Shown one piece after another: positions 8,477-35,219 of a stretch of 64,000 nt of DNA. A program made the position numbers and the translations under genes. Source of the stretch: Coriobacteriia bacterium. GTDB lineage: Bacteria > Actinomycetota > Coriobacteriia > Anaerosomatales > SLCP01. The notes under the pieces are model-generated. The model was not told the origin of the DNA. It was given only the letters and a program-made list of their open reading frames with translations, and did no database searches. The stretch covers positions 836 through 64,835 of the forward strand of contig JACUUN010000003.1 of NCBI GenBank assembly GCA_014859265.1, given 5' to 3'. Every line of letters starts with the position of its first letter. Within the stretch, counting starts at the first letter, position 1.

Positions 8477-9963
8477 GGCGTCACCCCCGCCACCAGGGCC
8501 GGAGCGCTCACCATGATGAGGTCGAGCAGCGGCTGGCCGACGATGCCGAGGACGAGCGCGCCGATCGCGAGCACGAGCGCTGCGCTCTCCATCGTCCACG
8601 GAGACGGGCCTGCGTTCAGATCCGCATCGTCCAGATCGTCAACCTCACGGCCGAAGAACGGCCCCACCACCCGGAAGACGTACGCGGCGGCAAGTAAGCC
8701 GCCAGTGACAACCACCGCGGCCCACCACCACTCGCCCGACTCGATCGACGCGCGGATCATCTGCCACTTGGCGACGAACCCACCGCTTGGCGGGAGCCCC
8801 ATCATCGTCACGCCGGCAAGGCCGAACGCCATCGCCGTCACCGGCGCGCGTCGCGAGAGCCCGCCAAGGCCGTCGATGCGATCGTGCCCGAAGCGCGCGA
8901 GCACAGTACCCGCTGCGAGAAACATCGCAGACTTGGCAAGTGCATGGGAGACCGCGTGGAAGATGCCACCCATCCATGCGTCCGCCGCAGCCTGCCCTCC
9001 CCCCGTCACGAGCGGGAAGAGCAGGAAGAGGTAGCCGATCTGGGCCACCGTCGAGTACGCGACGAGCATCTTGAGGCGTTGCTGACGAAACGCCTGGATA
9101 GAGCCCCAGATGATGGCTGTCGAGCCGAGGACACCGAGCACCGTCGAAACCCCCGGGAAGGCCATCGGCTCGGCGACGTCGACCCACAGCCGCACAAGGA
9201 TGTAGAAGGAACCCTTCACGACCAGCGCCGAGAGCACCGCGCTCACCGGCGAGGGCGCGTTGGAGTGGGCCGGAGGCAACCAGAAGTGAAGCGGGAAGAG
9301 CGCGGTCTTGAGCACGAGCCCTACCGTCATGAGCGCCAGCGCGGCCTGACCGGTCGTGTCCGATCGAACGACCTCCCGAAGCGTCTGCATGTCCACGCTG
9401 CCGAATGCCCCGTAGATGAGCGCCACGCCGAGCAGGTAGAAGAGCGAGCCGAGGATCGCGGCGAGCATGTAGCGCATCGCAGCAACAAGCGCCTCGCGAC
9501 GCAGGGTCAGTCCCACCAGCGCGACGGCTGACATGCTCACAAGCTCGAGGCACACGTAGAGGTTGAAGATGTCGCCGGAAAGGAAGAGCGCGTGCAACGA
9601 GCCCCAGAGAAAGAGCCACAGCGGCCAGAAGAACCGATAGCGCTCGCGGTTACCGAAATAGCCGAGCGCGTACACCGTGACGAACAAGCCGACCACCGTG
9701 GTGACCAGCACCATCACCGCGGTGAAGCCGTCGACGACGAGATCGATGCCCAGCGGTCCGCCCCAGCCACCCACCTCGTAGCGCAGCTCGCCTTCACGCA
9801 CGACGGTCACCGCGAGCAGAATCGCAAGCGGCTGGGAAAGCAGCGCTGAGATGAGTGCGATCTGGCGTCCGAATCCGGTACCTAGCAGGTACGCCAGGGG
9901 CGCGGCGGTGAAAGGAACGAGGACGACGAGAGCGGGCAGCTGCCGCGCGATCCACTCAGCCAC
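8473..9963 (-). CDS. Na+/H+ antiporter subunit D-like (MrpD/NuoN family, first paralogue)
   Basis: Motifs: LKTALFPLHFWLPPAHSNAPSPVSAVLSA and VAYSTVAQIGY. Preferred start is GTG at 9963, with GGGGAGAG 5 nt upstream and an 8-nt overlap with mnhC. ATGs at 9987 and 9996 are alternatives. Confidence 0.8.
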   Translation of the reverse strand: MAEWIARQLPALVVLVPFTAAPLAYLLGTGFGRQIALISALLSQPLAILLAVTVVREGELRYEVGGWGGPLGIDLVVDGFTAVMVLVTTVVGLFVTVYALGYFGNRERYRFFWPLWLFLWGSLHALFLSGDIFNLYVCLELVSMSAVALVGLTLRREALVAAMRYMLAAILGSLFYLLGVALIYGAFGSVDMQTLREVVRSDTTGQAALALMTVGLVLKTALFPLHFWLPPAHSNAPSPVSAVLSALVVKGSFYILVRLWVDVAEPMAFPGVSTVLGVLGSTAIIWGSIQAFRQQRLKMLVAYSTVAQIGYLFLLFPLVTGGGQAAADAWMGGIFHAVSHALAKSAMFLAAGTVLARFGHDRIDGLGGLSRRAPVTAMAFGLAGVTMMGLPPSGGFVAKWQMIRASIESGEWWWAAVVVTGGLLAAAYVFRVVGPFFGREVDDLDDADLNAGPSPWTMESAALVLAIGALVLGIVGQPLLDLIMVSAPALVAGVTP

Positions 9964-10285
9964 CGAGACTCTCCCCAACGTCGACATCAGCCGCATCGAG
10001 CGCAGCGGTGCCGGTCTCGGTGTAGATGCGTTTGGCGAGCGCGAGCGCGAACGCTGTCGAGCTCACCGTGACGACGATGCCGGTCAGCACCATGGCGTGT
10101 GGCAACGGGTCAGGCACTGGTCCGCCGACCCGCCGGGCGATGCCGACGAGCACGAAGAAGACACCTGAGCTGGAGATGTTGAGCGCAAGCACTTTGTGCA
10201 GCAGGTGCGGTCGGGTCATAAGCGCGTACAGCCCGATGACGAAGAGCGCCGAGCCGACCAGTGTATAGAGGTCGGTCTGGCTCAC
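9956..10285 (-). CDS. mnhC: Na+/H+ antiporter subunit C (MnhC/NuoK-like)
   Basis: 109 aa, three TM helices, LYTLVGSALFVIGLYALMTRPHLLHKVLALNI is typical of MnhC/NuoK. GTG start preceded by GGGAGG, with a GTGA overlap onto the upstream gene. Confidence 0.85.
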   Translation of the reverse strand: MSQTDLYTLVGSALFVIGLYALMTRPHLLHKVLALNISSSGVFFVLVGIARRVGGPVPDPLPHAMVLTGIVVTVSSTAFALALAKRIYTETGTAALDAADVDVGESLGG

Positions 10286-11001
10286 TCGCCACCTCCCGAG
10301 CGACGGCGCAGCTCCTCGGCCGGGGACGCCGAGGCGATGAAGAGGCTGATGAGGATGGCGCCGATCGAGACCGTGAGCCATGTCTCGACCACGAGCATGA
10401 GCGTCTTGGCGAGATCGGCCGGGTACTCCAGCAGAAGACCTCCGGCAAGCATCTCGCCGATTGCGGTCGCCAGGAAGACGACGAAGCCGACGCTTATGGC
10501 CGCCCGCAGGGCGAACCGGCTCACCCATATGGGGCGCGCGTAGCCCGAGAGCGCAAGCAGCACTCCGGCCGCACCCAGCACCGAGCCCGCCTGGAACGCG
10601 CCTCCCGGAGCATGCTCGCCAGCCCACAGCAAGTAGCCCGAGACGAGAATCATCACGGGGGCGAGGAAGCGCGCGAGCGCCGAGAGCACGGGGTCGGCCT
10701 GGGCCGCAATCGGGTCCCAGGTCCCGGTCTGCGTAACACTGAGAGAGAGCACGCCGATTGTGGCGAGCACCAGCACCGCGATCTCGAGCAGGGTGTCGTA
10801 ACCGCGAAAGTTCAGGAGCACGGCGGTCACCGCGTTCTTAACACCGCTGACCGCGAGGTTTGCATCAACCAGCGGGGCGAGACCCGGCTCGGTCTCGGGG
10901 ATTGCGAGCACGGCGCGTGCGAGAAGCGCGCCGACGCCGGCGCAGATCGCAAGCGCGGCCACGCGGACCGCGATGGGGCTCTTGGCGGTGACCTTACCCA
11001 T
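10282..11001 (-). CDS. mnhB: Na+/H+ antiporter subunit B domain protein (MnhB/MbhE-like)
   Basis: GVKNAVTAVLLNFRGYDTLLEIAVL is the MnhB signature. ATG at 11001 overlaps the upstream stop by 8 nt. Confidence 0.8.
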   Translation of the reverse strand: MGKVTAKSPIAVRVAALAICAGVGALLARAVLAIPETEPGLAPLVDANLAVSGVKNAVTAVLLNFRGYDTLLEIAVLVLATIGVLSLSVTQTGTWDPIAAQADPVLSALARFLAPVMILVSGYLLWAGEHAPGGAFQAGSVLGAAGVLLALSGYARPIWVSRFALRAAISVGFVVFLATAIGEMLAGGLLLEYPADLAKTLMLVVETWLTVSIGAILISLFIASASPAEELRRRSGGGE

Positions 11002-11299
11002 CGGTATCGCCCCCGGACGCTCCCTCGGCGTCGGGCGAAGCAGGATACGGCTCTGCTCTGCCGCGCATGTGGCCCGCCGCATCGAGCAGCAGTGCTCCGG
11101 TGATACCCGCACCGATCGCCGCCTCGGCAAGCGCGATGTCGGGGGCCGACAGACGGACCCACGCAAGCGCCACGAGCAGGCCGAACGCGATGAAGAGCAC
11201 GACAGACTTAAAGAGCTTCACCTCGGCAAGTGCGCGAACGGCGAGCCAGACGAGCGTCGCCACGAGCAGGATGTCGAAGAACCACCCGGATGACGTCAT
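10994..11299 (-). CDS. DUF4040/MbhD-like small membrane subunit
   Basis: 101 aa, three TM helices, LSAPDIALAEAAIGAGITG motif as in MbhD or the N-terminal part of MrpB. ATGA overlap with mnhG. Confidence 0.7.
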   Translation of the reverse strand: MTSSGWFFDILLVATLVWLAVRALAEVKLFKSVVLFIAFGLLVALAWVRLSAPDIALAEAAIGAGITGALLLDAAGHMRGRAEPYPASPDAEGASGGDTDG

Positions 11300-11595
11300 G
11301 AGCGCTTCCTCCAGGGAGCAACGTTCGACGTACGCGCAGCCTCGGCCACGAGGTGACTCGCTGTGGCCCCGGCCACGATGACGAGAGCCCAGATCAGAAG
11401 CATCTTGAGCACGACCACCACCGAGTCGGCCCGCAGCGCCAGGCCGAGGACCACGAAACCGAGTCCGAGGTTATCGGCCTTGGTCAGTGCATGAAGGCGG
11501 GTGTAGACATCGGGGAAGCGCAGCACGCCCGTCGAGCCCGCCAGGAAGAAGAACGCGCCGACCGCGATGAGGGCAAGCGATATCCACTCGGTCAC
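11296..11595 (-). CDS. mnhG: monovalent cation/H+ antiporter subunit G
   Basis: LAGSTGVLRFPDVYTRLHALTKADNLG is the MnhG/PhaG signature. GTG at 11595 is preceded by GGGGGAG and overlaps the mnhF stop (GTGA). Confidence 0.85.
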   Translation of the reverse strand: MTEWISLALIAVGAFFFLAGSTGVLRFPDVYTRLHALTKADNLGLGFVVLGLALRADSVVVVLKMLLIWALVIVAGATASHLVAEAARTSNVAPWRKRS

Positions 11596-11879
11596 GACGA
11601 CTCCCCCTTCTCGTGAGGGCCCGGATGCCACGCTCGCTTCACGAACGCGACCGCGGCCATCGCCGCCAGGAGTGCGAAGACAAGCGCCACGTCGCGCAGC
11701 GCGGGAATCTCCATCGCTTCAGCGAGCAGAAGCAGGATGGCCACACCGGTGGTGCCGAAGAGCTGCGCCGCGAGCATGCGGTCCGCGGGGTTCGGGCCGC
11801 GCTCGACCCGGATGAGCCCGGCTATGACCGTCAGCATCAACACGCTTGCGAAACCGACAAGCACGACCTTCACCGACAC
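11592..11879 (-). CDS. mnhF: monovalent cation/H+ antiporter subunit F
   Basis: 95 aa, IRVERGPNPADRMLAAQLFGTTGVAILLL is typical of MnhF. GTG start, 10-nt overlap with mnhE. Confidence 0.85.
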   Translation of the reverse strand: MSVKVVLVGFASVLMLTVIAGLIRVERGPNPADRMLAAQLFGTTGVAILLLLAEAMEIPALRDVALVFALLAAMAAVAFVKRAWHPGPHEKGESS

Positions 11880-12430
11880 TCACCTCCGGTGATGTTCTCG
11901 CACGCAAGAAGGTTGCCGCCCTCGGCCGAGAGCGTGAGGCCGAAGAGGTCCGCAACACGCCGCTCGACGTCACGCAGACTCTGCTCGACCGGGAGTTCGC
12001 GGTCGAGCACGTGGAGTGTCATCGAGTCGCCCTCGAACCCGGTGCTGAGCGTGCCCGGAAGCAGGCTGACCGTGTCCGCGAAGAGCACCCGGGCATGCTC
12101 GGGGACCAGCCGCATGCGATAGCGGAAGATCATCGGATCGATCGGCATCGAGGGCTTGATGGCACGCAACGCGACGTCGATGCCGCCCATGACCGACTGG
12201 TGGACGAAGTACCACGCATACCTGAGCGCGCCTGCAGGCCGGATCCGCCAGGAGCGTGTAGGGGTGAGCTTGAGCGAGGCGACCGTCGCCAGCCCCACGA
12301 ATGGAATGCCGAACACCCAGCCTTCCGGATCGGCCTCGGCGACCACCCACCAGACCACGGCGAAGACGACCGCTCGTTCGAGCGGTCGCGTGTGGCGGCG
12401 CATGCGCGATGTGGAGGTGTGTGTCGGCAT
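11870..12430 (-). CDS. mnhE: Na+/H+ antiporter subunit E
   Basis: MnhE-like pattern: WVVAEADPEGW..., SVMGGIDVALRAI..., SLLPGTLS. First gene of the minus-strand cluster. ATG at 12403 is an alternative start. Confidence 0.8.
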   Translation of the reverse strand: MPTHTSTSRMRRHTRPLERAVVFAVVWWVVAEADPEGWVFGIPFVGLATVASLKLTPTRSWRIRPAGALRYAWYFVHQSVMGGIDVALRAIKPSMPIDPMIFRYRMRLVPEHARVLFADTVSLLPGTLSTGFEGDSMTLHVLDRELPVEQSLRDVERRVADLFGLTLSAEGGNLLACENITGGECR

Positions 12431-12564: not shown

Positions 12565-12639
12565 TGGTGGACGAGAAGGGATTCGAACCCTCAACCCCCT
12601 GCGTGCAAAGCAGGTGCGCTCCCGTTGCGCCACTCGCCC
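12565..12639 (-). tRNA. tRNA-Ala (anticodon TGC)
   Basis: Hand-folded cloverleaf: acceptor GGGCGAG/CTCGTCC with the G3:U70 Ala identity pair, anticodon loop TTTGCAC, T-arm GAGGG-TTCGAAT-CCCTT, encoded CCA. Confidence 0.9.
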
Positions 12640-12788: not shown

Positions 12789-12940
12789 AGCGTTTCTGTT
12801 TCCGCGAAATATCCGGGTGGTTGCATAGGGCCACATCAGTCTCCGGCACTGTGACCGACGAGCCTTCTCGACACAAAGGCGTGCCACAGGAAACGCCTGG
12901 CGCCCAGTCCCGGACCGAACGGCACGAAGGAGGTACCCCT

Positions 12941-14272
12941 ATGCACAAGGGCAAGCTCGCGGGAGTGCTCGCGATCGCACTCCTGCTCGCCCTGCCGGGC
13001 ACGGCGCTGGCCGCCGATCCCGGTGGCGCAGCCACGCTCGGCGACGACCTCACAGTCGCGCTCGACTTCCTGTGGCTCATGATCGCGGCGTCGATGGTCT
13101 TTCTCATGCAGGCGGGTTTCGCGATGGTCGAGGGCGGCTTCTGCCGTGCCAAGAACAACACGAACCTCATGATGAAGAACCTCATGGACATGGCGGTGGG
13201 CTCGATCGCGTACTTCGCAATCGGCTTCGGCTTCATGTACGGGGCGTCGGCGGGCGGCTTCATCGGGACAGACGGCTGGTTCATGAGCGGTGACTTCTAC
13301 GATGTGACCCTGTACCGGGACTTCATGTTCCAGGTCGTGTTCGCCGCTACGGCGGCCACCATCGTGTCGGGTGCCGTGGCCGAGCGACTGAAGTTCTCTG
13401 CATACCTGCTCTACTCGGTGGTCATCACCGCCGTCCTCTACCCGATCTACGGGCACTGGGTGTGGGGCGGCGGCTGGCTCGGCGAGCTCGGCCACCTCGA
13501 CTTCGCGGGCTCGGGCGTCGTGCACGCGATCGGCGGCTTCGTCGGTCTGGCAGGCGCAATCGTGCTCGGACCCCGCTTTGGCAAGTTCGCCAAGGACGGC
13601 ACGCCGAAAGCCATTCCCGGCCACAGCATCCCCCTGGCCACACTCGGCGTGTTCCTGCTCTGGTTCGGCTGGTTCGGGTTCAACGGCGGGTCCACGCTCT
13701 CCGGGACCGACCTGCGTCTCTCCGTCATCATGGTCAACACGAACATGGCAGCCGCCGCGGGCGCGCTCGCAGCTCTGCTGGTCACATTCGTCAAGACGAA
13801 GAAGTGGGACATCGGTATGGGCATCAACGGGGCGCTCGCCGGCCTGGTAGGCATCACCGCACCGTGCGCGTTCGTCTCAGGCGGTGCCTCGATCATAATC
13901 GGCGCCATCGCAGGCGCACTGGTGGTCGCCTCGATTTTCGCTCTGGAGAACATGGGCGTCGACGACCCGGTCGGCGCGGTGAGCGTACACGGCGTGAACG
14001 GGCTGTGGGGGCTGCTTGCCGTGGGCCTGTTCGCCGATGGGACCTACAACGCGGTCGGTCTGTTCTACGGCGGCGGCACCGAGCAGCTAGTGGCCCAGGT
14101 CATCGGCATGGTCACCGTGCTTGCGTGGGCGTTTATCGGCGGACTCGTACTGTTCAAGGTGCTCGACCTCGTCATGGGTATCCGCGTCTCCCCCGAGGAG
14201 GAGGTCGCCGGCCTCGACATCGACGAGCACGGTACCTCGGCCTATCCGAACTTCCTGGTCGTTGAAGAGTAA
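12941..14272 (+). CDS. amt: ammonium transporter (Amt family)
   Basis: ATG after GAAGGAGG, signal-like N-terminus, Amt motifs: LMQAGFAMVEGG, DFAGSGVVHAIGG, GFNGGS. The longer track ORF from 12821 is a 5-prime extension. Confidence 0.92.
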   Translation: MHKGKLAGVLAIALLLALPGTALAADPGGAATLGDDLTVALDFLWLMIAASMVFLMQAGFAMVEGGFCRAKNNTNLMMKNLMDMAVGSIAYFAIGFGFMYGASAGGFIGTDGWFMSGDFYDVTLYRDFMFQVVFAATAATIVSGAVAERLKFSAYLLYSVVITAVLYPIYGHWVWGGGWLGELGHLDFAGSGVVHAIGGFVGLAGAIVLGPRFGKFAKDGTPKAIPGHSIPLATLGVFLLWFGWFGFNGGSTLSGTDLRLSVIMVNTNMAAAAGALAALLVTFVKTKKWDIGMGINGALAGLVGITAPCAFVSGGASIIIGAIAGALVVASIFALENMGVDDPVGAVSVHGVNGLWGLLAVGLFADGTYNAVGLFYGGGTEQLVAQVIGMVTVLAWAFIGGLVLFKVLDLVMGIRVSPEEEVAGLDIDEHGTSAYPNFLVVEE

Positions 14273-14300
14273 GACGAGCACACCTGAGGAGGTGAAGACC

Positions 14301-14639
14301 GTGAAGAAGATTGAGGCGGTCATCCGGCCCGAGAAGCTGGACGACGTCAAGGAGGCCCTCGAGGCCGCGGGTTATCCGGGACTGATGCTCACCCGCATCG
14401 AGGGGCACGGCAAGCAGAAGGGCCTGATGCAGCAGTTCCGCGGTCGCCAGTACAAGGTGGAACTCCTGCCGAAGTACAAGGTAGAGGTCGTCTGTGCGGA
14501 CGCCCAGTGCGCAGGCCTCATCGAGGCGATCGCGGGAGCGGCCCGCACGGGCGAAGTCGGCGACGGCAAGATCTTCGTGAGCGATATCGCGGATATCGTG
14601 CGTATCCGAACCGGCGAGTCCGGCGAGGCAGCCATCTAG
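14301..14639 (+). CDS. glnK: P-II nitrogen regulatory protein
   Basis: 112 aa, VKKIEAVIRPEKLDDVKEAL..., T-loop GHGKQKGLMQQFRGRQYKVEL, C-terminal GDGKIFV...IRIRTGE. GTG after GAGGAGG. Confidence 0.92.
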   Translation: MKKIEAVIRPEKLDDVKEALEAAGYPGLMLTRIEGHGKQKGLMQQFRGRQYKVELLPKYKVEVVCADAQCAGLIEAIAGAARTGEVGDGKIFVSDIADIVRIRTGESGEAAI

Positions 14640-14657
14640 CAGCGTGCGGCTTGTGCG

Positions 14658-14692
14658 CGACAGGGGCGAGAGCGCAAGCCTCGCTCCTGTCG
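14658..14692 (+). promoter_or_regulatory. strong hairpin in the spacer between the two PII genes (possible attenuator or processing site)
   Basis: CGACAGGGGCGAG-agcgcaagc-CTCGCTCCTGTCG. The direct repeat CACGATCACC follows twice before the next start codon. Confidence 0.35.
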
Positions 14693-14766
14693 TGTCGCCG
14701 GCGGACGCCGCGACGGTAGCACGATCACCACAGGTACACCACGATCACCGAGAGGCTGTGAACCCC

Positions 14767-15105
14767 GTGAAGAAAGTCGAAGCCGTTTTCCGACCCGGGA
14801 AGCTCGAGGACGTCAGGGGTGCGCTCGATACGCTGGAGCGTATCGGGATGACGGTGTTCGAGGTCAAGGGTCACGGCATCCAGGGCGGACTCACCCAGCA
14901 CTGGCGAGGCGAGGAGTACCACGTGAGCCTGGTCCCCAAAGTCATGGTGATGGCCGTTGTGCACGACCACGAGGTCCAGGAGACCATCGAGACCATCGCT
15001 TCGGTCGCACGGACCGGGGTCATGGGGGATGGTAAGATCTTCGTTGCCCCCACCGAACAGGCGCTCCGCATCCGCACCGGCGAGAGCGGCCCCCAGGCAA
15101 TCTGA
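14767..15105 (+). CDS. P-II family nitrogen regulator (second tandem paralogue)
   Basis: 112 aa, VKKVEAVFRPGKLEDVRGAL..., divergent T-loop GHGIQGGLTQHWRGEEYHVSL, GDGKIFV...IRIRTGE. GTG at 14767. Confidence 0.9.
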   Translation: MKKVEAVFRPGKLEDVRGALDTLERIGMTVFEVKGHGIQGGLTQHWRGEEYHVSLVPKVMVMAVVHDHEVQETIETIASVARTGVMGDGKIFVAPTEQALRIRTGESGPQAI

Positions 15106-15569: not shown

Positions 15570-16274
15570 TCACTCAAGCGAATCGAGCAGCCTGCGCATC
15601 TCGTCCTCGGAGACCTCGCCAACCGCACGGTTGACCTCGGCCCCGTCACTGTTTACGAATACGAACGTGGGAACGTACTGCGCGCCGTACCGGCGCATCA
15701 ACTCCTGCCCCTCGGAACTTTTGTCCACATCGTAGATCCTGAACTCGACCTTACCATCGTACTCCTGCTTGAGCCTGTCGACCACAGGCTTCATCGTCTT
15801 GCAGGCGGGTCACCAGTCAGTCGAGAATTCGTACATAACCGGCGCGGCACCGGGCGTGACATCTGCCGGCATGGGGACGATTTCGCTCCCACGTTCCAGG
15901 TCACCATCCCAGGCGATGATGCCTGCCGCGAGGTGGTAGATGGTCTCGAACCCCTGCGCCTCAAGATAGGTCACGGCCTGGGCGGAGCGGGCACCCGTAG
16001 TGCAGTAGATGAGCAGCGGCTCAGAGCGGTCCCATTCCGACGCGACTGATCCGAGAGAATCCATCGGGACGTTCTCGGCACCCGGGATGTGGCTGAGCTC
16101 GTACTCGCCAGGCGTCCGGACGTCGATGACCCGCACGCCCTCGGCGACGAGTTCGTTCGCCCGGGCAGGTGAGACGTCTTGTACGCCTCCACCCGCAGGC
16201 CTCATAAGCAATACGGCTCCAATGATCACGACAAAGGCGACGCCGCCCCATATGAGCACTTTCCTGAGATCCAT
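15570..16274 (-). CDS. candidate selenoprotein: membrane-anchored rhodanese-thioredoxin fusion with an in-frame TGA (Sec) at 15812..15810
   Basis: Track ORFs 15810..16274 and 15570..15794 share one frame. Reading through gives ...VMYEFSTDW-TGA-PACKTMKPVVDRLKQEYDGKVEF...YVPTFVF..., a complete thioredoxin fold with TGA at the first Cys of WCxxC. The upstream part has an N-terminal TM helix and a rhodanese domain with active-site loop CTTGAR. Confidence 0.65.
15764..15805 (-). other. candidate bacterial SECIS hairpin
   Basis: It starts 4 nt after the TGA. Lower stem CCUGC/GCAGG, internal loop, upper stem AGCCUGU/ACAGGCU, apical loop GGUCG. The apical loop starts 26 nt after the UGA and contains GGUC, as in the E. 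coli fdhF SECIS loop. Confidence 0.55.
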
Positions 16275-16310
16275 GCGCGCTTTCCGTCCGTCGAGTGTTC
16301 GAGAGGCAGT

Positions 16311-16326
16311 ATACCCCTTAGGGTAT
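16311..16326. promoter_or_regulatory. palindromic operator candidate ATACCC-CTTA-GGGTAT in the divergent promoter region
   Basis: 6-bp perfect arms. It lies 37 nt upstream of the rhodanese-trx ATG and about 170 nt upstream of the glucan synthase start. It resembles the GC-tract palindromes bound by CsoR/CstR-family repressors; that comparison is from memory, not checked. Confidence 0.3.
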
Positions 16327-16498
16327 CAAGTAGACAACCCTCGGCGCTGCCTCCATCCTGCGCGATCGCGCGAGTTGCCCTATAAGTAGCAAGGACCCCA
16401 CCAATCGGATACCGGGTCGTCTAGACTACATGTGTGAGCGCCGAGGAAAGGTCGAGTGCGTGACGGACACACGGACCAGGGTACCCGCGGCTCAAGAC

Positions 16499-19400
16499 AT
16501 GGCCAGCCTCGAGCCGCCGTTCAGGGGCGAGCTGCTGAGCGCCGAGCGCATCGCCGACGCTGCACGACGTATCGCCCGCGCGCAAACGTGGACGACCGAG
16601 GCCCCTCCCGCTACCACTCCTCTCATCCCCTTGCTCCAGCAAGCCGCTTCATCGCTCGATTCCGACAACGCCGTACTCACCTCGGCAGTGCGCAGGCTTC
16701 ACCCGGTTTCTCCCGCCACCGAGTGGCTCCTCGACAACTACTACCTCATCGACGGGCAGGTGCGCGCGGCACGCCACGATCTGCCCGTGCACTACGGTGT
16801 CGAGCTCCCGCGACTGAAGGCGGACCCGCTCAAGGGCTTCCCCCGGGTATACGAGGCCACCGTATCGCTCGTGGCCTACACGGACGCTCGGCTCGATGCG
16901 GAGTTTCTCGGCAGGTTTGTCGAGGGGTTCCAGGACATCTCGCCGCTCACCATCGGAGAGGTGTGGGCGATCCCGATCATGCTGCGGATCGCACTCGTCG
17001 AGAACCTCCGGCGGCTCTCGGCCCGGGTGGTGGGCGCGTACCATGCGACACGCGCCGCCGACGAGTGGGCCGAGCGCCTGCTGCTCACTGCCCAGGACCG
17101 CCCCGACGACCTGCGTTCGCTCCTCGACGAGTTAGACACGGTCGCCGCCGACGCCACGCCCGCGTTCTACGTACGCCTCTCGCAGCGACTCCAGGGCGAG
17201 GGCGCCGGAGCTGAGGCGACGAACGCCTTCCTTGCCCGACGTCTTGTGTCAGCCGGGTACGACCTCGACGTTCTGGCACACCGCCTCCAGCAGGAGCAGG
17301 CCGCCGACCAGGTCTCGATCGCCAACAGCATCACTTCCGTGCGCTTCCTCGAGGCCTTCGACTGGAAGGGGTTCTTCGAGGAGACGAGCCTCGTCGAGCT
17401 CATCTTGCGCGAGGACCCCACCGGCGTGTACGCGCGCATGGACTTTCGCAGCCGCGACCGATACCGGCACGCGCTCGAGATGCTTGCGCGCCGCTGCCCG
17501 CTCGAGGAGACCGAGGTCGCGGAGGCAGCGGTGAGCTGGGCACTCGAGGGTGCCGACCGGGCTGATGGTGACCCGGCGGTCGGTCACGTCGGCCACTACC
17601 TCGTTGATGAAGGACGCGCCACATTCGAGGCCAGCATCACGTACTCCCCAAGCGCACGAGACCGGTTCGAGAGGGCTCTTCACCGGCACCGCAGGCTCTT
17701 CTACTGGGGCTCGATATCGCTGGTGACCGCGCTACTCGCCGCGCTGCTCGCCCTCTACGCGTTCATTATCGGCGCATCTGTTGCGGTGATTGGTCTGCTG
17801 ACACTCCTTGCGCTCGTCCCGCTCTCGGAGGTCGCGCTCACGGTCACTAACCGCCTCGCAGCAGCTGCGTCCCCCCCTCGCATCCTGCCTAAGCTCGACT
17901 ACCTCGAGCCGCTCGACGAGCCTCATCGGAGCCTCGTGGTCGTCCCGGCACTGCTGACGTCGGTAGAGTCGGCACGCTCGGTGCTCGACAACCTTGAGGT
18001 CGCCTACCTCGCCAATCGCGACGATCAGCTCGGGTTCGGGCTCCTCGGCGACTTGAAGGGCGCGGACGCTGAGCACCGGGAGGGTGACTCGGAGATCATC
18101 GAGGCAGCGGTGCGCGGAGTGGAGGAGCTCAACGAGCGCTACGCCGCCGATCACGGGCGGCGGCCCTTCTTCCTCTTCATCCGGGGGCGAACGTTCAACG
18201 CGACCGAGGGCACGTGGATGGGGTGGGAGCGCAAGCGCGGCTCGCTCGTCGAGCTCAACCACATGCTGCGCCACTCGCGCGAGACGTCCTTCACCCACCG
18301 GGTCGGCGACGAGTCATTCCTGGGCGGCGTCACCTTCGTTCTCACCATCGACGCCGACACCCAGCTGCCGCGCGACACCGCGCGCAAGCTCGTGTCTACG
18401 ATCGCACACCCCCTCAACCGGGCCCGGTGGACACCGGGCGAGCCGATCGTCCGCAGGGGCTACGGCCTCATCCAGCCGAGGGTCGGAATGGCCCTGCCAG
18501 CCTCGACGCGTTCCTTCTACGCTTGGCTGCACTCGGGCATCACCGGCATAGACCCGTACGCCGGGGCCGTCTCCGACACCTATCAGGATCTCTTCGCCGA
18601 GGGGAGCTTCACGGGCAAGGGCGTCTACGAGGTGAACGTCTTCGCAGGCGTGCTGGACGGCGCAATCCCTGAGAACACGCTGCTCTCGCACGACCTTCTC
18701 GAGGGATGCTTCCTGCGTGTCGGGCTCGCCTCGGACATCGAGGTGCTCGACGACTACCCGGCGACGTACGGCGCACAGGTTGCGCGGCTGCACCGCTGGG
18801 TGCGCGGTGACTGGCAGACGCTGCCGTGGCTCGGTGCGCGCATCCCACGTGAGGACGGCACCGCTCCCAACCCGCTGTCGGGGCTGCACCGCTGGAAGTT
18901 GGTCGACAACTTGAGGCGCAGCCTCTCCGGTCCCGCCATGCTGCTCCTGCTCTCGCTGGGCTGGGCGCTCCTGCCTGGGCCGGCATGGGCATGGCCCCTG
19001 CTCATGATGTTGGTCGTGCTCTTCCCGGTGTACTTCGACGCCGCGAATGGACTACTCTTCCGGCCCCCCGATGTGCCGTTCGCCCGGACGGCTTCGACGG
19101 TCTGGGCGAACTTCGGGCGGGACTCGGCTCGTACCCTGCTCGCCCTCGCGTTCCTGCCCCACCACGCCTACCAGATGATCGACGCCGCGATCCGGGCGCT
19201 CTGGCGCATGTGGGTCTCGCGTCGCAAACTGCTCGAGTGGGAGACCGCCGCCGACGTCGAGCGCTCGGTCGGCCAGGGGGTCTCCGGATATCTGCGCCGC
19301 CTCGGACCAGCAGCGGCCGTTGCCATCATACTGTTGCTGCCGGGGACGCTTGCCAGCCCGCTGCGCGTGACAGTAGCGGCCCCCCTTGTGGCGCTCTTCG

Positions 19401-22400
19401 CCGCGGGTCCCTTCCTCGCGTGGCGTGTCTCGCGTGCGCGCCCGGTCGAGCGCCCCCCGCTCGATCCTGCCCTCGTGCCCTCGCTGCGCCAGGTCGCCCG
19501 CGCCACCTGGCGGTTCTTCGAGACTTTCGCCGGCCCAGAGAGCAACTACCTTACGCCCGACAACTTCCAGGAGGATCCGAAGGGCGAGGTGGCCTACCGA
19601 ACCTCCCCCACCAACATCGGCCTCCAGCTGATTGCAGGGGTCACCGCGTACGACCTCGGCTACCAAACCCTCGGGCGTCTCGTAGAGCGGACCGCCGACA
19701 CGCTCTCGACCATGGCCGGCATGCGGCGCTTCCGCGGGCACTTCTACAACTGGTACGACACGCACACGCTCGAGCCGCTGCCGCCGCACTACATCTCCAC
19801 CGTGGACAGCGGCAACCTCGCGGGCCACCTCCTCGTGCTCCGCATGGGGCTGCTCGAAGCGTCCGAGGCCCCGCTCCTTGGCCCGCAGCTGCGTGCCGGG
19901 CTTGAGGACACCACGGCTCTCGCGCTTCACGACCTTGCCGAGAAACGCGAGCGTGTTGCACCTGAAGCTGCCGTGACAGCCGTGCGCAAGTGTCTCGAGG
20001 AGCTGCGGCGGGACGCAGCGCTCGCCGAGCCGCCGGCAGACGCGGCCGCCTGGCACGCGCTGCTCACACGGTGGCACGGTTTCGCCGAGAGTGCGGTCGA
20101 GCAGGCGGCCGGTCTTGATAGTCTGGCAGTCCCCACCGCTGCCGCCGACCCACTGCACGTCACCGATCCGGCGAAGCACGTCCGCGCGTCCGTCGGTGCG
20201 GTCGCCGATCTCATCACTGACGCCCTTGCGCTGCTCGAAACGTTCGCCCCGTGGGCCGAGTTCACCGCCGAGTTACCTCATGCGGTCGCCACCGACGTGC
20301 GCGACGCTGCGCTCGCCCCGCTGCTCGCGCACATGCCGAGCCTCGTCGGCCTGGCCGAAGGACTCGAGTTCGCGTTAGAGGCGCTCGACTCGCTCGTACA
20401 GGACCCACCCGGCGAGACCACCGGGGAGCGCGAAGCGGCCGCCGCGTGGGCCGCCGCTGTCGCGCACGGCCTGCGGTCGGCACGTTTGGCGTGCGAGGAG
20501 CTCCTCGGCCGGCTCCGGCTCGACGCTGACATGGCACGCGAGATGTGGGAGCACACCGACTTCTCGATGCTCTTCGACAAGCGCCGCCTGCTCTTCTCGA
20601 TCGGCTATAACACCGCCGAAGGACACCTCGACGACTCCTACTACGACATGCTTGCCTCGGAGTGCCGCCTCGCCTCCTTCCTCGCCATCGCGAAGGGCGA
20701 CGTTCCGCAGGAGCACTGGTTCCGGCTCGGCAGGCAGATCACGCGGGCCAACGGCGGACAGGCGCTGCTCTCGTGGAGCGCGTCGATGTTCGAATACCTC
20801 ATGCCGCTGCTCGTGATGCGCTCGTGGCCGATGACGCTGCTCGACCAGACATACGACGCGATCGTGCACCGGCAGATCGAGTACGGCCGCGAGCTCAGCG
20901 TGCCATGGGGGGTCTCGGAGTCGGCCTTCAACGTGCTCGATGCTCACCTTACCTACCAGTACCAGGCGTTCGGCGTGCCGGGGCTCGGGCTCAAGCGCGG
21001 GCTCTCCGAAGACATCGTGATCGCACCCTATGCGACCATCCTCGCATTGCCGGTCGCGCCGGCCGAGGCGCATGCGAACCTCGAGCGCCTCACCGCGATC
21101 GGAGCTCGGGGGCGCTACGGCTACTACGAGGCAGTCGACTTCACGCCCGGGCGCGTGCCTGCAGGTGAGAGGCGGGCAGTCGTCCGCACCTACATGGCTC
21201 ATCACCAGGGTATGACGCTCGTCGCGCTCGGCAATGCGCTCACCGCTGACCGGATGCGCGACCGCTTTCACGCCGACCCGATGGTCGCCTCGGCCGAGCT
21301 GCTGCTCCAGGAGCGCGCGCCCCGCGCGGTCGCATACACCACTCCGCACGTCGGCGAGGTCGAGGCTGTTCGCTCCGTCGAGGAGCTGCCGGTGCCCGCA
21401 ACGCGCACCTACCCGCTCGCGGACACGCCCGCGCCCGCGACTCACTTCCTCTCCAACGGCCGTTACTCGGTCATGGTCACCAATGGCGGCGGCGGGTACA
21501 GCCGCTGGAACGGCGTCTCGGTCACCCGCTACCGCGAGGACATCACGCGGGACTGCTGGGGGCACTTCTTCTACCTGCGCGACGTTGACAGCGGCGAGGT
21601 CTGGTCTTCGGCATACAACCCGGCGCCGAAACGCCCGGACGCCTACCACGTTACCTTCTCGGCAGACAAGGCCGAGTACCACCGGCGGGACGGCGACATC
21701 GAGACCCGCACCGAGGTCGCGGTCTCGCCCGAGGATGACGTCGAGGTGCGCCGGCTGACCATCTCGAACCGGGGACTCGGGCCTCACCGCATCGAGGTCA
21801 CGAGCTACTTCGAGATCGCGCTCTCCGACCAGGCCGCCGATCAGGCACACAAGTCCTTCTCGAACCTCTTCGTCGAGACCGAAGGGGTCGAGGCCCAGCG
21901 GACGCTGCTCTTCTCGCGGCGTCCCCGTTCGACCGCCGAGGAGCGGGTGTGGGGCTTCCATGTGCTCGGCTGCGAAACCGGCCTGTGCGCGTGGAGCTAC
22001 GAGACCGACCGGGCACGCTTCCTCGGCAGGCTCAACGGGGCGGCTGCGCCTGCGGCGGTGCGGGAAGGCGGGGCGCTATCGGGCACGGCAGGCGCGGTGC
22101 TCGACCCTGCGTGCGCGATTAGACACACGCTCGAGCTCGGACCGGGTGAGAGCGCGCGGCTCGCATACGTGACCGGCGTTGCGGCGACCCGCGAGGTAGC
22201 GCTCACTATCGCCGAGCGCTACCAGGACATCCGCACCGCCCAGCGCGCGATCGACCTGTCGTGGACCGCCGCGCAAATCGAGCTTCGTGACCTCGGCATC
22301 GGCGCCGAGGAGGGCGTCGTGCTGCAGCGACTCGCCTCGCGCCTGTTGCTCACCGACCCGTACTCGCCGCTCAAGGTGAAATCGCTCGTGGAGAACGGGC

Positions 22401-26678: not shown

Positions 26679-26755
26679 TGGTGGGCCCGAGTGGATTCGA
26701 ACCACTGACCTCACGGTTATCAGCCGTGCGCTCTAACCAACTGAGCTACGGGCCC
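26679..26755 (-). tRNA. tRNA-Ile (anticodon GAT)
   Basis: GGGCCCGTAGCTCAGTTGGTTAGAGCGCACGGCTGATAACCGTGAGGTCAGTGGTTCGAATCCACTCGGGCCCACCA. Canonical cloverleaf, anticodon loop CTGATAA, encoded CCA. Confidence 0.93.
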
Positions 26756-26839: not shown

Positions 26840-27235
26840 TCACAGCCTTGATACTCGCACCTCGATCCGGCGCGTCCTCGGCCCGTCGAACTCGCAGAAG
26901 AAGACGCCCTGCCACGTGCCGAGAGCAAGCCTTCCGCCCGAGACCGGCACGCTCGCCGAGGCCCCGAGCAGCGAGGCCTTCACGTGTGCGTCGGCGTTGC
27001 CCTCGGCATGCTGCCAGCCAGCCTCACGCGGAACGAACCTGGCTAACCCGGCGACGATGTCACGGGCGACCGAGGGGTCGGCCGCCTCGTTTACTGTGAC
27101 CGCCGCGGTGGTGTGCGGGCACCAGATGTGCGCGATGCCCTCGGCCACGCCGGAGGAAGTCACCGTCTCGGCCACGCGCTGCGTGACATCCACGAACTGC
27201 TCGCGCCGTTCGGTGCGAACCTCTATCACCGTCAT
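26840..27235 (-). CDS. YjbQ family secondary thiamine-phosphate synthase (UPF0047)
   Basis: 131 aa, MTVIEVRTERREQFVDVT...HTTAAVTVNE...GNADAHVKASLLG...G.WQ is the family signature. ATG preceded by GGGGGAGG. The longer track ORF to 27598 is an extension. Confidence 0.85.
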   Translation of the reverse strand: MTVIEVRTERREQFVDVTQRVAETVTSSGVAEGIAHIWCPHTTAAVTVNEAADPSVARDIVAGLARFVPREAGWQHAEGNADAHVKASLLGASASVPVSGGRLALGTWQGVFFCEFDGPRTRRIEVRVSRL

Positions 27236-27335
27236 GACGCCTCCCCCGCTCACTGGATGCGCTCGCCCGCCTGCCGGTACCTTCCCGTATGATAGTGGAA
27301 GGTACAGCGTAGGAACGCGAGAGGAGGTGCAGGAG

Positions 27336-32141: not shown

Positions 32142-34733
<2,592 letters not shown>

Positions 34734-35198: not shown

Positions 35199-35219
35199 GC
35201 TCCACCCGTCCGCCCGGCA

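What the first reader, a model, noticed from the sequence alone, without database searches (positions are those of the whole stretch)
15570..16274. In-frame TGA on the first Cys of a thioredoxin WCxxC motif: candidate membrane-anchored rhodanese-thioredoxin selenoprotein
**Seen directly**
- Track ORFs 15810..16274 (TM helix plus rhodanese with CTTGAR active-site loop) and 15570..15794 (thioredoxin fold lacking its N-terminus and active site) are in the same frame.
- They are separated only by TGA (15812..15810) and five sense codons.
- Reading through gives ...APVMYEFSTDW-[TGA]-PACKTMKPVVDRLKQEYDGKVEF...YVPTFVF. This is a full thioredoxin with the stop codon on the nucleophilic Cys.
- A two-stem hairpin with apical loop GGUCG starts 4 nt after the TGA.

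**Established**
- Bacterial Sec insertion needs a SECIS hairpin just 3-prime of the UGA.
- UxxC redox motifs and Sec-containing thioredoxins are known, for example in Treponema denticola. Rhodanese-like selenoproteins are also known.

**Inference**
- This is one 234-aa Sec protein.
- I cannot match the fusion (TM anchor, Cys-rhodanese, Sec-thioredoxin) to a described selenoprotein family. It would couple persulfide or selenium handling to a Sec-based oxidoreductase at the membrane.
Basis: partly seen in the sequence, partly recalled or inferred. Interest (0 to 1): 0.8.

Follow-up and report, generated by a model that had tools for sequence, protein, structure and literature searches.

The report
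Exported rhodanese-thioredoxin selenoprotein gene
Public annotation splits this gene in two at a TGA codon, but it is almost certainly one gene for a membrane-tethered, outward-facing sulfur-transfer (rhodanese) plus thioredoxin protein whose attacking active-site residue is selenocysteine; the family is conserved in dozens of anaerobic Actinomycetota and is absent from the selenoprotein catalogues I could check.

Summary
On the minus strand, 16274..15570 is one 234-codon frame: TM anchor, rhodanese, then thioredoxin, with TGA (15812..15810) at the first Cys of W-x-P-A-C.

The TGA is not an error or a pseudogene:
- All 46 related species-level genomes carry TGA at this column. The 78-80 downstream codons stay open and conserved.
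- A 6-bp hairpin with loop GGUCG, 26 nt after the UGA, is fully paired in all 46. Three pairs show compensatory changes, and it meets all four published bacterial SECIS criteria.
- Codon choice inside it is under RNA-level constraint: Arg is AGG in 27/27, and Pro is CCU or CCC, never CCG.
- The rare Cys-form orthologue has TGT and no hairpin.

- Only the apical stem is conserved, not the outer one.
- Both domains are predicted to face outward. Variants have lipoprotein signal peptides, and seven loci lack rhodanese.
- Sec forms vastly outnumber Cys forms.

Sec-decoding genes could not be checked; none lie in the sequence held. No NCBIfam model claims the protein, and a 2026 list of 119 selenoprotein families has no such architecture. 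I rate it a new variant of the UxxC thioredoxin-fold selenoproteins. The proposed function, persulfide/thiosulfate reduction at the cell surface, is inferred.

The parts
15570..16274 (-). Complete recoded gene, 234 codons plus stop: ATG 16274..16272, Sec-UGA 15812..15810, terminating TGA 15572..15570
   Evidence: tblastn of the read-through covers residues 1-234 in related genomes.
16203..16262 (-). N-terminal hydrophobic signal-anchor (residues ~5-24, VLIWGGVAFVVIIGAVLLM). Predicted N-in/C-out.
   Evidence: 104/106 homologues have exactly one N-terminal hydrophobic segment. The N-side is more positive than the C-side in 103/106. Relatives carry lipoboxes instead.
15906..16160 (-). Rhodanese domain (residues 39-123). 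Catalytic Cys91 is TGC 16004..16002, in the loop Y-C-T-T-G-A-R-S.
   Evidence: Pfam PF00581, 59.7 bits against a cut-off of 22.2. Y90, C91, G94, R96 and S97 are invariant in 65 homologues. PDB rhodanese 3iwh matches at E 2e-12.
15849..15905 (-). Variable linker between rhodanese and thioredoxin (residues ~124-142)
   Evidence: Variable in sequence and length among homologues.
15582..15848 (-). Thioredoxin-fold domain (residues 143-231). Motif W-U155-P-A-C158; putative cis-Pro P202 (V-P-T, 15671..15669).
   Evidence: Pfam PF00085, 52.6 bits against 23.5; PF13098, 55.4 against 27. Residue-by-residue alignment to solved thioredoxins.
15810..15812 (-). In-frame TGA read as selenocysteine (residue 155), the nucleophilic position of UxxC
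   Evidence: TGA in 46/46 related genomes. Cys codon TGT in the rare Cys-form orthologue.
15801..15803 (-). Resolving Cys158 (TGC) of the UxxC motif
   Evidence: Cys in 46/46. It lies between the TGA and the ATG that gene callers use for the 74-aa fragment.
15772..15790 (-). SECIS hairpin: 5' arm 15790..15784, loop GGUCG 15783..15779, 3' arm 15778..15772. The conserved core is 6 bp (15789..15773). The loop starts 26 nt after the UGA.
   Evidence: 276/276 core cells paired, and 3 pairs have compensatory double changes; 46/46 pass the bSECIS criteria; codon bias; at least 7 independent U-A/C-G switches.
16308..16337 (-). Promoter-like site (TTGTCT-18-TATACT), 34 nt upstream of the ATG, in the 155-bp divergent intergenic region
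   Evidence: This is a consensus match only and is not tested.

Best explanation
**What it is**
Window 16274..15570 (minus strand) is a single gene for a 234-residue selenoprotein. The ribosome reads UGA 15812..15810 as selenocysteine. It is directed by a SECIS hairpin 20 nt downstream (GCCUGU-GGUCG-ACAGGC core) that lies within the codons for P163-V-V-D-R-L168.

**Protein layout**
- One N-terminal signal-anchor helix.
- A rhodanese domain with catalytic Cys91, then a minimal thioredoxin fold with the redox motif W-U155-P-A-C158. Both are predicted to sit on the outer face of the membrane.

**Proposed mechanism (inferred)**
1. Cys91 takes a sulfane sulfur from thiosulfate or polysulfide and becomes a persulfide.
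2. The Sec155 selenolate attacks it and sulfide is released.
3. Cys158 resolves the intermediate, leaving a Sec155-Cys158 selenenylsulfide.
4. An unidentified membrane electron carrier (CcdA/DsbD-type) or a small thiol re-reduces it.

**How likely, and what is shown**
- 'One recoded Sec gene': about 0.9.
- Outward-facing topology: about 0.8.
- The persulfide-reductase chemistry: about 0.4.
- Shown: gene structure, conservation, hairpin covariation, domain identity.
- Inferred: Sec rather than another amino acid at the UGA, topology, substrates, electron donor.
For: **Gene structure**
- Frame, TGA position and domains.

**Conservation of the TGA**
- More than 100 homologous protein clusters (40-100% identity) all end at ...YEF-x-T-D-W, immediately before the TGA. 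106 of the 120 listed do so.
- Homologues of the thioredoxin half are almost all 71-76-aa fragments that begin at the Met after UxxC.
- 46/46 species-representative genomes have TGA at this codon, followed by P-x-C and an open, conserved 78-80-codon frame.
- That Met is replaced by Ile or Val in some relatives, so there is no conserved restart.

**Hairpin**
- The 6-bp core is paired in 276/276 cells. Compensatory changes occur at three pairs (U-A 27 / C-G 19; G-C 43 / A-U 3; C-G 45 / U-A 1). The structure beats all slid registers and 500 shuffles.
- The U-A/C-G switch needs at least 7 changes on a tree.
- It links a synonymous Pro site (CCU/CCC, never CCG) to an Arg(AGG)/Gly(GGG) replacement. 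Arg here is AGG in 27/27, while another Arg column uses six codons.
- All 46 hairpins meet the four bSECIS criteria stated in PMC13188914.

**Controls**
- Cys-form orthologues P0293 and P0389 (WCPGC) exist. P0293 has TGT and the hairpin is lost, at -1.0 kcal/mol.
- TGA ends 16 of 36 predicted genes in the window, including this gene itself.

**Topology**
- A single N-terminal hydrophobic segment, positive-inside in 103/106.
- Lipoprotein signal peptides in rhodanese-less variants and in the Cys forms.

**Chemistry**
- The rhodanese catalytic Cys and loop are invariant.
- Rhodanese persulfides are reduced by dithiols to sulfide plus disulfide. PspE is a periplasmic rhodanese, and GlpE interacts with thioredoxin (PMC2593051).
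- Cultured members of the order Anaerosomatales, to which the nearest named relatives belong, include a sulfur/thiosulfate reducer and an Fe(III) reducer (PMC9686372).
Against: - No selA, selB or selD (tblastn) and no tRNA-Sec were found in the window or in the 46 loci. Only about 0.7 Mb was searchable, so this is absence of data, not evidence of absence.
- No other selenoprotein gene was found in the sequence held.
- No Rfam family matches the hairpin.
- Folding energy of the window's 66 nt is not unusual (z = -0.8).
- No redox partner (CcdA/DsbD) lies nearby.
- Seven loci keep the Sec-thioredoxin module without rhodanese. Rhodanese therefore cannot be its only client.
- Topology rests on sequence rules, not on a dedicated predictor or an experiment.
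Confidence: 0.8

Rival explanations
1. The selenoprotein gene is real, but the Sec-thioredoxin module is a general extracytoplasmic thiol-disulfide reductase or isomerase, like ResA, CcsX, TlpA or DsbC. It would act on other exported proteins, for example apocytochromes c or oxidised cysteines. The fused rhodanese would be just one client, kept reduced after sulfenylation, or a lineage-specific add-on.
For: - Seven of 46 loci encode the same Sec-thioredoxin module behind a lipoprotein signal or TM anchor with no rhodanese. Both forms co-occur in two MAGs: L030+L042 and L037+L043.
- The thioredoxin module is more conserved than the rhodanese.
- The isolates of the order are reported to encode multiheme cytochromes c (PMC9686372).
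Against: - The gene is not in a ccdA/resBC-type operon.
- The fusion with an invariant catalytic rhodanese Cys is kept in 39 of 46 loci and in both Cys forms. That argues for coupled chemistry.
Confidence: 0.3
2. The UGA is read through without selenocysteine, for example by near-cognate Trp or Cys tRNA stimulated by the downstream hairpin. The active site would then be WWPAC or WCPAC.
For: - The Sec machinery was not found in the sequence held.
- One JGI record translates the codon as W (P0107).
Against: - The hairpin fits the SelB-type bSECIS model in loop sequence (GGU...), size and spacing in 46/46.
- Trp at the nucleophilic position would kill a thioredoxin.
- A lineage needing Cys would simply use TGC/TGT, as the two Cys forms do, and those have lost the hairpin.
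- The W in P0107 is an annotation choice, not data.
Confidence: 0.05
3. The TGA is a true stop. The locus would encode a 154-aa membrane rhodanese plus a separate 74-aa thioredoxin fragment, or a decaying pseudogene, as current public annotation has it.
For: - Public gene calls.
- Bacterial Sec insertion is inefficient, so some truncated product is likely in any case (general knowledge).
Against: - The P-x-C codons between the TGA and the supposed restart are invariant (46/46 P, 46/46 C).
- The restart Met is not conserved.
- The 74-aa fragment would lack both the active site and the first strand.
- There is no frameshift or extra stop in 46 genomes at 45-85% identity.
- The first thioredoxin strand (PVMYEF) sits upstream of the TGA.
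Confidence: 0.03
4. The protein handles selenium rather than sulfur. An outward-facing rhodanese would bind selenium as a perselenide. The Sec-thioredoxin would reduce selenite or selenotrisulfides for uptake or detoxification.
For: - Thioredoxin systems reduce selenite for selenoprotein synthesis (PMC8538045, listed; abstract only).
- From memory: rhodanese can carry selenium in vitro.
Against: - There is no linkage to selD or other selenium genes in 46 loci.
- The cultured relatives do not reduce selenate or selenite (PMC9686372).
- Nothing in the sequence distinguishes Se from S substrates.
Confidence: 0.07

Closest known systems
Selenocysteine-containing thioredoxin (Trx, PF00085, UxxC; Treponema denticola, listed as experimentally verified in PMC13188914)
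   Same: - Thioredoxin fold.
- Sec replaces the first, nucleophilic Cys of CxxC.
- The SECIS lies inside the coding sequence just downstream.
   Different: - T. denticola Trx is, from memory, a small soluble cytoplasmic protein.
- This protein is membrane-anchored or lipidated and predicted to face outward.
- It is usually fused to a rhodanese.
- Its dipeptide is P-[S/A/T].
- It does not reach the NCBIfam thioredoxin equivalog cut-off (52.8 bits against 96.8).
Predicted 'thiol:disulfide interchange protein' selenoprotein (PF13098, UxxC) and 'thiol-disulfide isomerase-like' selenoprotein (cd02966, UxxC), listed in PMC13188914
   Same: - Thioredoxin-fold oxidoreductase with a UxxC motif.
- The PF13098 domain matches here (55.4 bits).
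   Different: - Neither is listed with a rhodanese domain.
- I could not obtain their representative sequences. Orthology is therefore untested.
TsoB, rhodanese/DsbD fusion-like selenoprotein (NCBIfam NF045694; 'rhodanese form 5', motif UxxxxU, two Sec)
   Same: - It combines a rhodanese domain with disulfide-reductase machinery in one membrane selenoprotein.
- The C-terminal thioredoxin region gives a weak match.
   Different: - 38.8 bits against a cut-off of 805.
- The TsoB model is 572 positions long, and TsoB is listed with a UxxxxU motif and two Sec.
- By name and size TsoB should contain a DsbD transmembrane core (inferred, not checked). This protein has one TM helix, one Sec and a UxxC motif.
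Rhodanese-like selenoproteins forms 1-4 (PF00581 / NF041203; UxxS, UxxG, CxU)
   Same: - Rhodanese domain in a selenoprotein.
   Different: - The motifs and domain IDs listed for those families put the Sec in the rhodanese domain. Here the rhodanese keeps an invariant Cys and the Sec is in the fused thioredoxin.
- NF041203 scores 31.6 bits against 115.
E. coli PspE (periplasmic rhodanese) and GlpE with thioredoxin; the thiosulfate:dithiol sulfurtransferase reaction (PMC2593051)
   Same: - Single-domain rhodanese whose persulfide is discharged by a dithiol, giving sulfide plus a disulfide.
- PspE is extracytoplasmic.
- GlpE interacts with thioredoxin.
   Different: - Those are separate, all-Cys proteins.
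- Here donor and acceptor are one polypeptide and the acceptor nucleophile is Sec.
- This is a functional analogy only.
Membrane-anchored extracytoplasmic thioredoxin-like reductases of Gram-positives (ResA/CcsX/TlpA type)
   Same: - N-terminal anchor or lipoprotein signal plus an outward-facing CxxC thioredoxin fold.
   Different: - NCBIfam ResA, StoA and DsbD models score far below cut-off.
- There is no ccdA/resBC neighbourhood.
- This protein has Sec instead of Cys and a rhodanese fusion.

Membership tests
Bacterial selenoprotein gene (Sec-UGA recoding) | In-frame UGA conserved among orthologues, with the downstream frame under purifying selection | tested here: met
   - 46/46 genomes have TGA.
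- 78-80 downstream codons stay open and conserved.
- P and C of UPxC are invariant.
Bacterial selenoprotein gene (Sec-UGA recoding) | The UGA aligns with Cys in homologues (Cys/Sec pair) | tested here: met
   - Orthologues P0293 and P0389 have WCPGC, and P0293's codon is TGT.
- All solved thioredoxins align Cys at this position.
Bacterial selenoprotein gene (Sec-UGA recoding) | bSECIS element: 3-9 nt loop, 4-16 bp stem, G in the first two loop positions, 16-37 nt from the UGA, MFE <= -7.5 kcal/mol (PMC13188914) | tested here: met
   - Loop of 5 nt (GGUCG in 37/46).
- Stem of 6-7 bp.
- Spacing of 26 nt.
- MFE of -9.4 to -12.3 kcal/mol.
- 46/46 pass.
- Covariation is shown.
Bacterial selenoprotein gene (Sec-UGA recoding) | The genome encodes SelA, SelB, SelD and tRNA-Sec | not testable with these tools
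   - None were found in the window or in 46 flanking loci.
- The rest of these genomes could not be read.
Bacterial selenoprotein gene (Sec-UGA recoding) | Selenium is physically present in the protein | not testable with these tools
   This needs 75Se labelling or mass spectrometry.
Thioredoxin fold (Pfam PF00085 / PF13098) | Profile match above the curated cut-off, with the CxxC position and the cis-Pro loop | tested here: met
   - PF00085: 52.6 bits against 23.5. PF13098: 55.4 bits against 27.
- U155-x-x-C158 aligns to WCGPC.
- V-P202-T aligns to the I-P-T loop.
NCBIfam thioredoxin equivalog TIGR01068 | Score at or above 96.8 bits | tested here: not met
   52.8 bits.
Rhodanese domain (Pfam PF00581), catalytically competent | Profile match plus a catalytic Cys in the active-site loop | tested here: met
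   - 59.7 bits against 22.2.
- Y90, C91, G94, R96 and S97 are invariant in 65 sequences.
- Activity itself is not tested.
TsoB rhodanese/DsbD fusion-like selenoprotein (NF045694) | Score at or above 805 bits; UxxxxU motif; DsbD-type membrane core | tested here: not met
   - 38.8 bits, over the thioredoxin part only.
- One TM helix.
- The motif is UxxC.
Rhodanese-related (seleno)protein NF041203 and rhodanese selenoprotein forms 1-4 | Sec in the rhodanese domain (as indicated by the listed motifs and domain IDs); model cut-off 115 bits | tested here: not met
   - 31.6 bits.
- The rhodanese active site has Cys91.
Other NCBIfam thioredoxin-like selenoprotein models (SaoT NF040730, TsoX NF045809, PDO_seleno_TRX TIGR02187) | Score at or above the model cut-off | tested here: not met
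   - 24 bits against 65.
- 20.8 bits against 52.
- 19.9 bits against 185.
'Thiol:disulfide interchange protein' selenoprotein (PF13098, UxxC; WP_011366075.1) | Orthology to the named representative | not tested
   - The domain and motif class agree.
- The representative sequence was not retrievable with these tools.
Extracytoplasmic (exported) protein | Signal-anchor or lipoprotein signal peptide with N-in orientation | tested here: met
   - A single N-terminal hydrophobic segment in 104/106, positive-inside in 103/106.
- Lipobox variants LSAC, IAAC, LAAC, LVAC, AWGC, LAGC, MAGC and ISGC.
- This is a sequence-rule prediction only.

The most novel reading that the evidence does not exclude
This would be a self-contained, surface-exposed sulfane-sulfur reductase that depends on selenium. 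A tethered rhodanese captures thiosulfate or polysulfide sulfur outside the cell, and a fused selenocysteine thioredoxin reduces it to sulfide. It is used almost only in its Sec form by subsurface anaerobic Actinomycetota (the OPB41/Anaerosomatales group and relatives). I found no exported rhodanese/Sec-thioredoxin selenoenzyme like it in the sources I could search. It would be a previously unrecognised selenium requirement, possibly tied to sulfur handling, in these organisms.
Probability: 0.3. Interest if true: 0.7.

Novelty: new variant of a known kind. Interest (0 to 1): 0.6.

Why it matters
- **Annotation.** In every public record of these genomes that I saw, the gene is annotated as two unrelated short ORFs ('rhodanese-like domain-containing protein' and 'thioredoxin family protein'). 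More than 200 protein clusters are therefore mis-called. One profile model with a Sec column would fix this.
- **A new architecture.** It adds to the catalogued prokaryotic selenoproteins an anchored or lipidated protein, predicted to face outward, that combines rhodanese with a Sec-thioredoxin.
- **Sec as the rule.** The Sec form is the norm here: 46/46 genomes, against two Cys clusters. This runs against the general pattern that Cys homologues far outnumber Sec forms. It gives a clean system for asking what Sec buys in a thiol-disulfide oxidoreductase outside the cell.
- **RNA shaping protein.** The SECIS sits in the coding sequence and visibly dictates protein sequence (Arg or Gly at residue 167 according to the base pair). 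This is a clear example of RNA structure constraining protein evolution.
- **Physiology.** The order Anaerosomatales has cultured isolates (I did not find the gene in them). If an isolate carries it, the prediction of surface sulfur chemistry becomes directly testable.

Tried and rejected
**Searches that found nothing**
- Rfam, at gathering threshold on the whole window and at E <= 10 on 15650..15900: only two tRNAs and no SECIS family.
- ARAGORN on the window and 46 loci: no tRNA-Sec.
- tblastn of E. coli SelA, SelB and SelD against the window plus 46 loci: no hits.
- Crude scan of the window for other in-frame TGAs flanked by coding-like frames. It gave seven candidates, all off-frame or overlap artefacts; one looked like W-U-x-x-C but is the end of a NuoN/MnhD-type gene. 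The scan's GC3 threshold also missed the true gene, so it is insensitive.
- Scan of all held DNA for TGA followed by a GGU-loop hairpin at SECIS spacing in open frames: only this family plus two off-frame hits.
- Neighbourhood analysis for a redox partner or operon: none. The only conserved neighbours are a divergent giant GH94 glucan-synthase-like gene and a downstream tRNA-Ala.

I searched with the N-terminal 154 aa instead.
- Structure prediction was not run. The read-through sequence is not admissible, the alignment built around the Cys form misplaced the 74-aa fragments onto the rhodanese domain, and the tool returns no coordinates from which a Cys91-Sec155 distance could be read.
- Haft & Tolstoy 2025, the source for TsoB, is not in the held library.

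**Considered and rejected**
- Sequencing error: the TGA is present in 46 independent assemblies.
- Genetic-code reassignment: TGA ends 16 of 36 predicted genes in the window.
Full report
**1. The observation**

On the minus strand an ATG at 16274 opens a frame that runs 234 codons to TGA at 15572..15570. It has one internal stop, TGA at 15812..15810.
- 15810..16274, 154 aa, ending ...APVMYEFSTDW;
- 15570..15794, 74 aa, starting MKPVVDRL.

They share a frame and are separated by the TGA and the five codons P-A-C-K-T.

With Cys substituted at the stop, Pfam finds Rhodanese at residues 39-123 (59.7 bits, cut-off 22.2). It finds Thioredoxin at residues 143-231 (52.6 bits, cut-off 23.5; Thioredoxin_2 55.4 bits). 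Alignment to solved thioredoxins places the stop on the first Cys of WCGPC and V-P202-T on the cis-proline loop.

**2. Is the TGA real and conserved?**

A search with the read-through protein returned 140 clusters at 40-100% identity. Nearly all were about 150-180 aa long and covered only the first 66% of the query. Their C-termini are telling: 106 of the 120 listed end at ...[VM][YL]EF-x-T-D-[W/S/T/G], exactly one residue before the TGA column. Conversely, homologues of the thioredoxin half are almost all 71-76-aa fragments beginning at the Met after UxxC. Gene callers have cut this family at the same codon everywhere.

I then fetched DNA. A pattern built from the conserved strand upstream of the codon is blind to what follows it. 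It found 46 loci in species-representative genomes, labelled Coriobacteriia, Anaerosomatales, Actinomycetota and a few others.
- All 46 have TGA at the column and none has a Cys codon.
- All continue P-[S/A/T]-C...M-x-P-V-V-D-[R/G]-L...E-Y-E-G-x-V-x-F for 78-80 codons to a stop at the same aligned place. Two records are cut or masked.
- P and C of UPxC are invariant.
- The Met used as a restart by gene callers is Ile or Val in some relatives.

A true stop, a pseudogene or a base-calling error cannot produce this. TGA is otherwise an ordinary stop here: it ends 16 of 36 predicted genes in the window, including this one.

**3. The hairpin**

Downstream of the TGA, the sequence GCC[U/C][G/A]U-GGUCG-A[C/U][A/G]GGC is conserved. 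In the window it is AGCCUGU-GGUCG-ACAGGCU at 15790..15772.

| Measure | Result |
|---|---|
| Core pairs (6 bp) formed across 46 sequences | 276 of 276 cells |
| Pair at alignment columns 30-40 | U-A 27 / C-G 19 |
| Pair at alignment columns 31-39 | G-C 43 / A-U 3 |
| Pair at alignment columns 28-42 | C-G 45 / U-A 1 |
| Cells paired, given 7-pair register | 95% |
| Cells paired, slid registers | 20-45% |
| Shuffles (of 500) reaching the observed pairing or covariation score | 0 |
| Minimum U-A/C-G switches on a tree built without the hairpin codons | about 7, no mismatched intermediate |

The tree comes from a short protein, so the count of seven is approximate.

The U-A/C-G switch couples the third base of Pro163 to the first base of residue 167. 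CCU goes with AGG (Arg) and CCC goes with GGG (Gly). A silent site therefore covaries with an amino-acid replacement.

Codon usage confirms selection at the RNA level:
- Pro163 is only CCU or CCC, while the Pro column 10 codons upstream of the UGA is mostly CCG.
- Arg167 is AGG in 27 of 27, while another Arg column uses six codons.

All 46 hairpins satisfy the four published criteria for bacterial SECIS elements (PMC13188914; tested):
- a 3-9 nt loop;
- a 4-16 bp stem;
- G in the first two loop positions;
- 16-37 nt between the UGA and the loop, and MFE at or below -7.5 kcal/mol.

Here the loop is 5 nt, the spacing is 26 nt and the MFE is -9.4 to -12.3 kcal/mol.

Only 56% of its cells are paired across relatives, so it is not part of the conserved element. 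No Rfam family matches.

**4. The Cys control**

A whole-library profile search with the N-terminal 154 aa found one full-length form, P0293 (230 aa). It has a lipoprotein signal (…LSMAGC), a rhodanese and a thioredoxin with W-C-P-G-C. A further search added one more cluster, P0389 (238 aa, WCPGC). Everything else similar is truncated at the Sec column.

In the P0293 locus the codon is TGT. The corresponding stretch (GCCGAU-CGUCG-AGAAGC) pairs at only 3 of 6 positions, and the best fold is -1.0 kcal/mol. So TGA and hairpin travel together, and the Cys codon comes without the hairpin. This also supplies the Cys/Sec pair that the field uses as a criterion.

**5. What could not be tested**

- The window has only tRNA-Ala and tRNA-Ile.
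- The 46 loci have no tRNA-Sec.
- E. coli SelA, SelB and SelD find nothing in the window or loci by tblastn.
- I found no second selenoprotein gene in about 0.7 Mb of held sequence.

It is the main reason my confidence is not higher.

**6. Anatomy and topology**

Of 106 family members, 104 have exactly one hydrophobic segment, at the N-terminus. In 103 the N-side is more positively charged than the C-side (median +3 against 0). Many have long Lys/Arg-rich N-termini.

Seven of the 46 loci encode the same Sec-thioredoxin module without rhodanese:
- six behind lipoprotein signal peptides (…LSAC, …IAAC, …LAAC, …LVAC, …AWGC);
- one behind a TM anchor.

A further rhodanese-less example is the protein record P0107, which has the lipobox …LAGC. 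Both Cys forms are lipoproteins. Two MAGs carry both a rhodanese form and a rhodanese-less form (L030+L042, L037+L043).

By these rules the rhodanese and Sec-thioredoxin domains sit outside the cytoplasmic membrane. The thioredoxin module is the constant core.

The rhodanese is nonetheless built to work. Y90, C91, G94, R96 and S97 of the active-site loop are invariant in 65 sequences.

**7. Context**

The gene stands alone. Upstream and divergent lies a 2948-aa GH94/glucoamylase-like protein resembling cyclic beta-1,2-glucan synthases. It is conserved in about 41 of the loci. tRNA-Ala(TGC) lies downstream in 36 of 46 loci. In the window, two P-II genes and amt are inserted between the gene and that tRNA. 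A promoter-like site lies 34 nt upstream of the ATG. No CcdA/DsbD, cytochrome-maturation or selenium gene is nearby. The window is the chromosome-origin region, with gyrA, gyrB, recF, DciA, Jag, parA and parB.

**8. How it probably works**

*Shown:* one recoded gene, two intact catalytic domains and export signals.

*Established chemistry:*
- Rhodaneses carry sulfane sulfur as a Cys persulfide.
- A dithiol acceptor yields sulfide plus the disulfide.
- E. coli PspE is a periplasmic rhodanese, and GlpE interacts with thioredoxin (PMC2593051).

*Inference:*
1. Cys91 is persulfidated by thiosulfate or polysulfide outside the cell.
2. Sec155 attacks the persulfide.
3. Sulfide leaves.
4. Cys158 closes a selenenylsulfide.
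5. An unidentified donor recycles it.

The nearest named relatives belong to the order Anaerosomatales (OPB41). Its two cultured isolates are a sulfur/thiosulfate reducer and an Fe(III) reducer (PMC9686372). I put about 0.4 on this mechanism.

The main alternative (about 0.3) is that the Sec-thioredoxin is a general surface disulfide reductase and the rhodanese is one client or an add-on. The rhodanese-less forms suggest this.

**9. Comparison with what is known**

Sec-thioredoxin (UxxC) is an experimentally verified family. Several thioredoxin-fold UxxC families and five rhodanese selenoprotein forms are listed among 119 families and subfamilies in a 2026 inventory (PMC13188914). In the rhodanese forms the listed motifs and domain IDs put the Sec in the rhodanese domain, or in TsoB's UxxxxU motif. 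None is a rhodanese plus Sec-thioredoxin fusion.

No NCBIfam model reaches its cut-off:

| Model | Score (bits) | Cut-off (bits) |
|---|---|---|
| TsoB | 38.8 | 805 |
| NF041203 | 31.6 | 115 |
| SaoT | 24 | 65 |
| TsoX | 20.8 | 52 |
| thioredoxin equivalog | 52.8 | 96.8 |

I could not retrieve the representative of the listed 'thiol:disulfide interchange' selenoprotein, nor read Haft & Tolstoy 2025. Prior description cannot be fully excluded.

**10. Verdict**

This is a real feature and almost certainly a genuine selenoprotein gene that is mis-annotated across public data. It is a new variant (architecture, location and lineage) of the known class of UxxC thioredoxin-fold selenoproteins. Interest is moderate to high for selenium biology and for annotation. 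Its function is still to be shown.

Noticed in passing
window 12565-12639 (-) and 26679-26755 (-); L001-L046: tRNA-Ala(TGC) and tRNA-Ile(GAT) lie 14 kb apart as stand-alone genes that bracket the selenoprotein gene. From memory, this pair usually sits together in rRNA spacers. tRNA-Ala lies downstream of the gene in 36 of 46 related loci, so the synteny is conserved.
   Followed up: partly
window 16430-25276 (+): A giant 2948-aa protein with two GH94 supersandwich stretches, a GH94 catalytic domain and a glucoamylase-like domain, plus a weak GT2 hit in an orthologue. It resembles cyclic beta-1,2-glucan synthases. It is the conserved divergent neighbour of the selenoprotein gene in about 41 loci. 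No functional link is evident.
   Followed up: partly
window 32142-48780: This is the chromosome-origin region: gyrA, gyrB, DciA, recF (all minus strand), Jag/KhpB, parA and parB. dnaA and dnaN presumably lie at about 39-44 kb but were not checked.
   Followed up: partly
window 12821-15105 (+): An ammonium transporter followed by two tandem P-II genes is inserted between the selenoprotein gene and tRNA-Ala in this genome. It is absent from that position in most relatives.
   Followed up: no
window ~5268-12430 (-): A multi-subunit Mrp/Mnh-type cation:proton antiporter operon (MnhB/MbhE, MNHE, MrpF, PhaG and NuoL/N-like subunits). Its genes overlap at TGA stops, and one of these mimicked a W-U-x-x-C motif in my scan.
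   Followed up: partly
P0107 (JGI metagenome protein); L054 10484-10699; L056 8955-9179: Public annotation is inconsistent. One JGI record translates the Sec-TGA as Trp (…TDWWPSC…). Others call the downstream 71-74 aa as a separate 'thioredoxin family protein' or leave it uncalled.
   Followed up: yes
L030+L042 (UBA6100), L037+L043 (MFD12108 bin10): Two MAGs carry two paralogous Sec-thioredoxin genes each. One is fused to rhodanese with a W-U motif. The other is a lipoprotein without rhodanese, with an S-U motif and a hairpin variant GCCCAU-CGUGA-GUGGGC.
   Followed up: partly
window 15772-15790 (-), residue 167: Residue 167 is Arg (AGG) or Gly (GGG), strictly according to whether Pro163 is CCU or CCC. 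The SECIS base pair dictates an amino-acid polymorphism in the thioredoxin helix.
   Followed up: yes
window 25376-26587 (+), 26916-27830 (+), 50309-50938 (-): A cyclopropane-fatty-acyl/mycolic-acid synthase-like methyltransferase, a bifunctional-nuclease-domain protein and a rubrerythrin. The nuclease-domain gene is also next to the Cys-form gene in L049.
   Followed up: no
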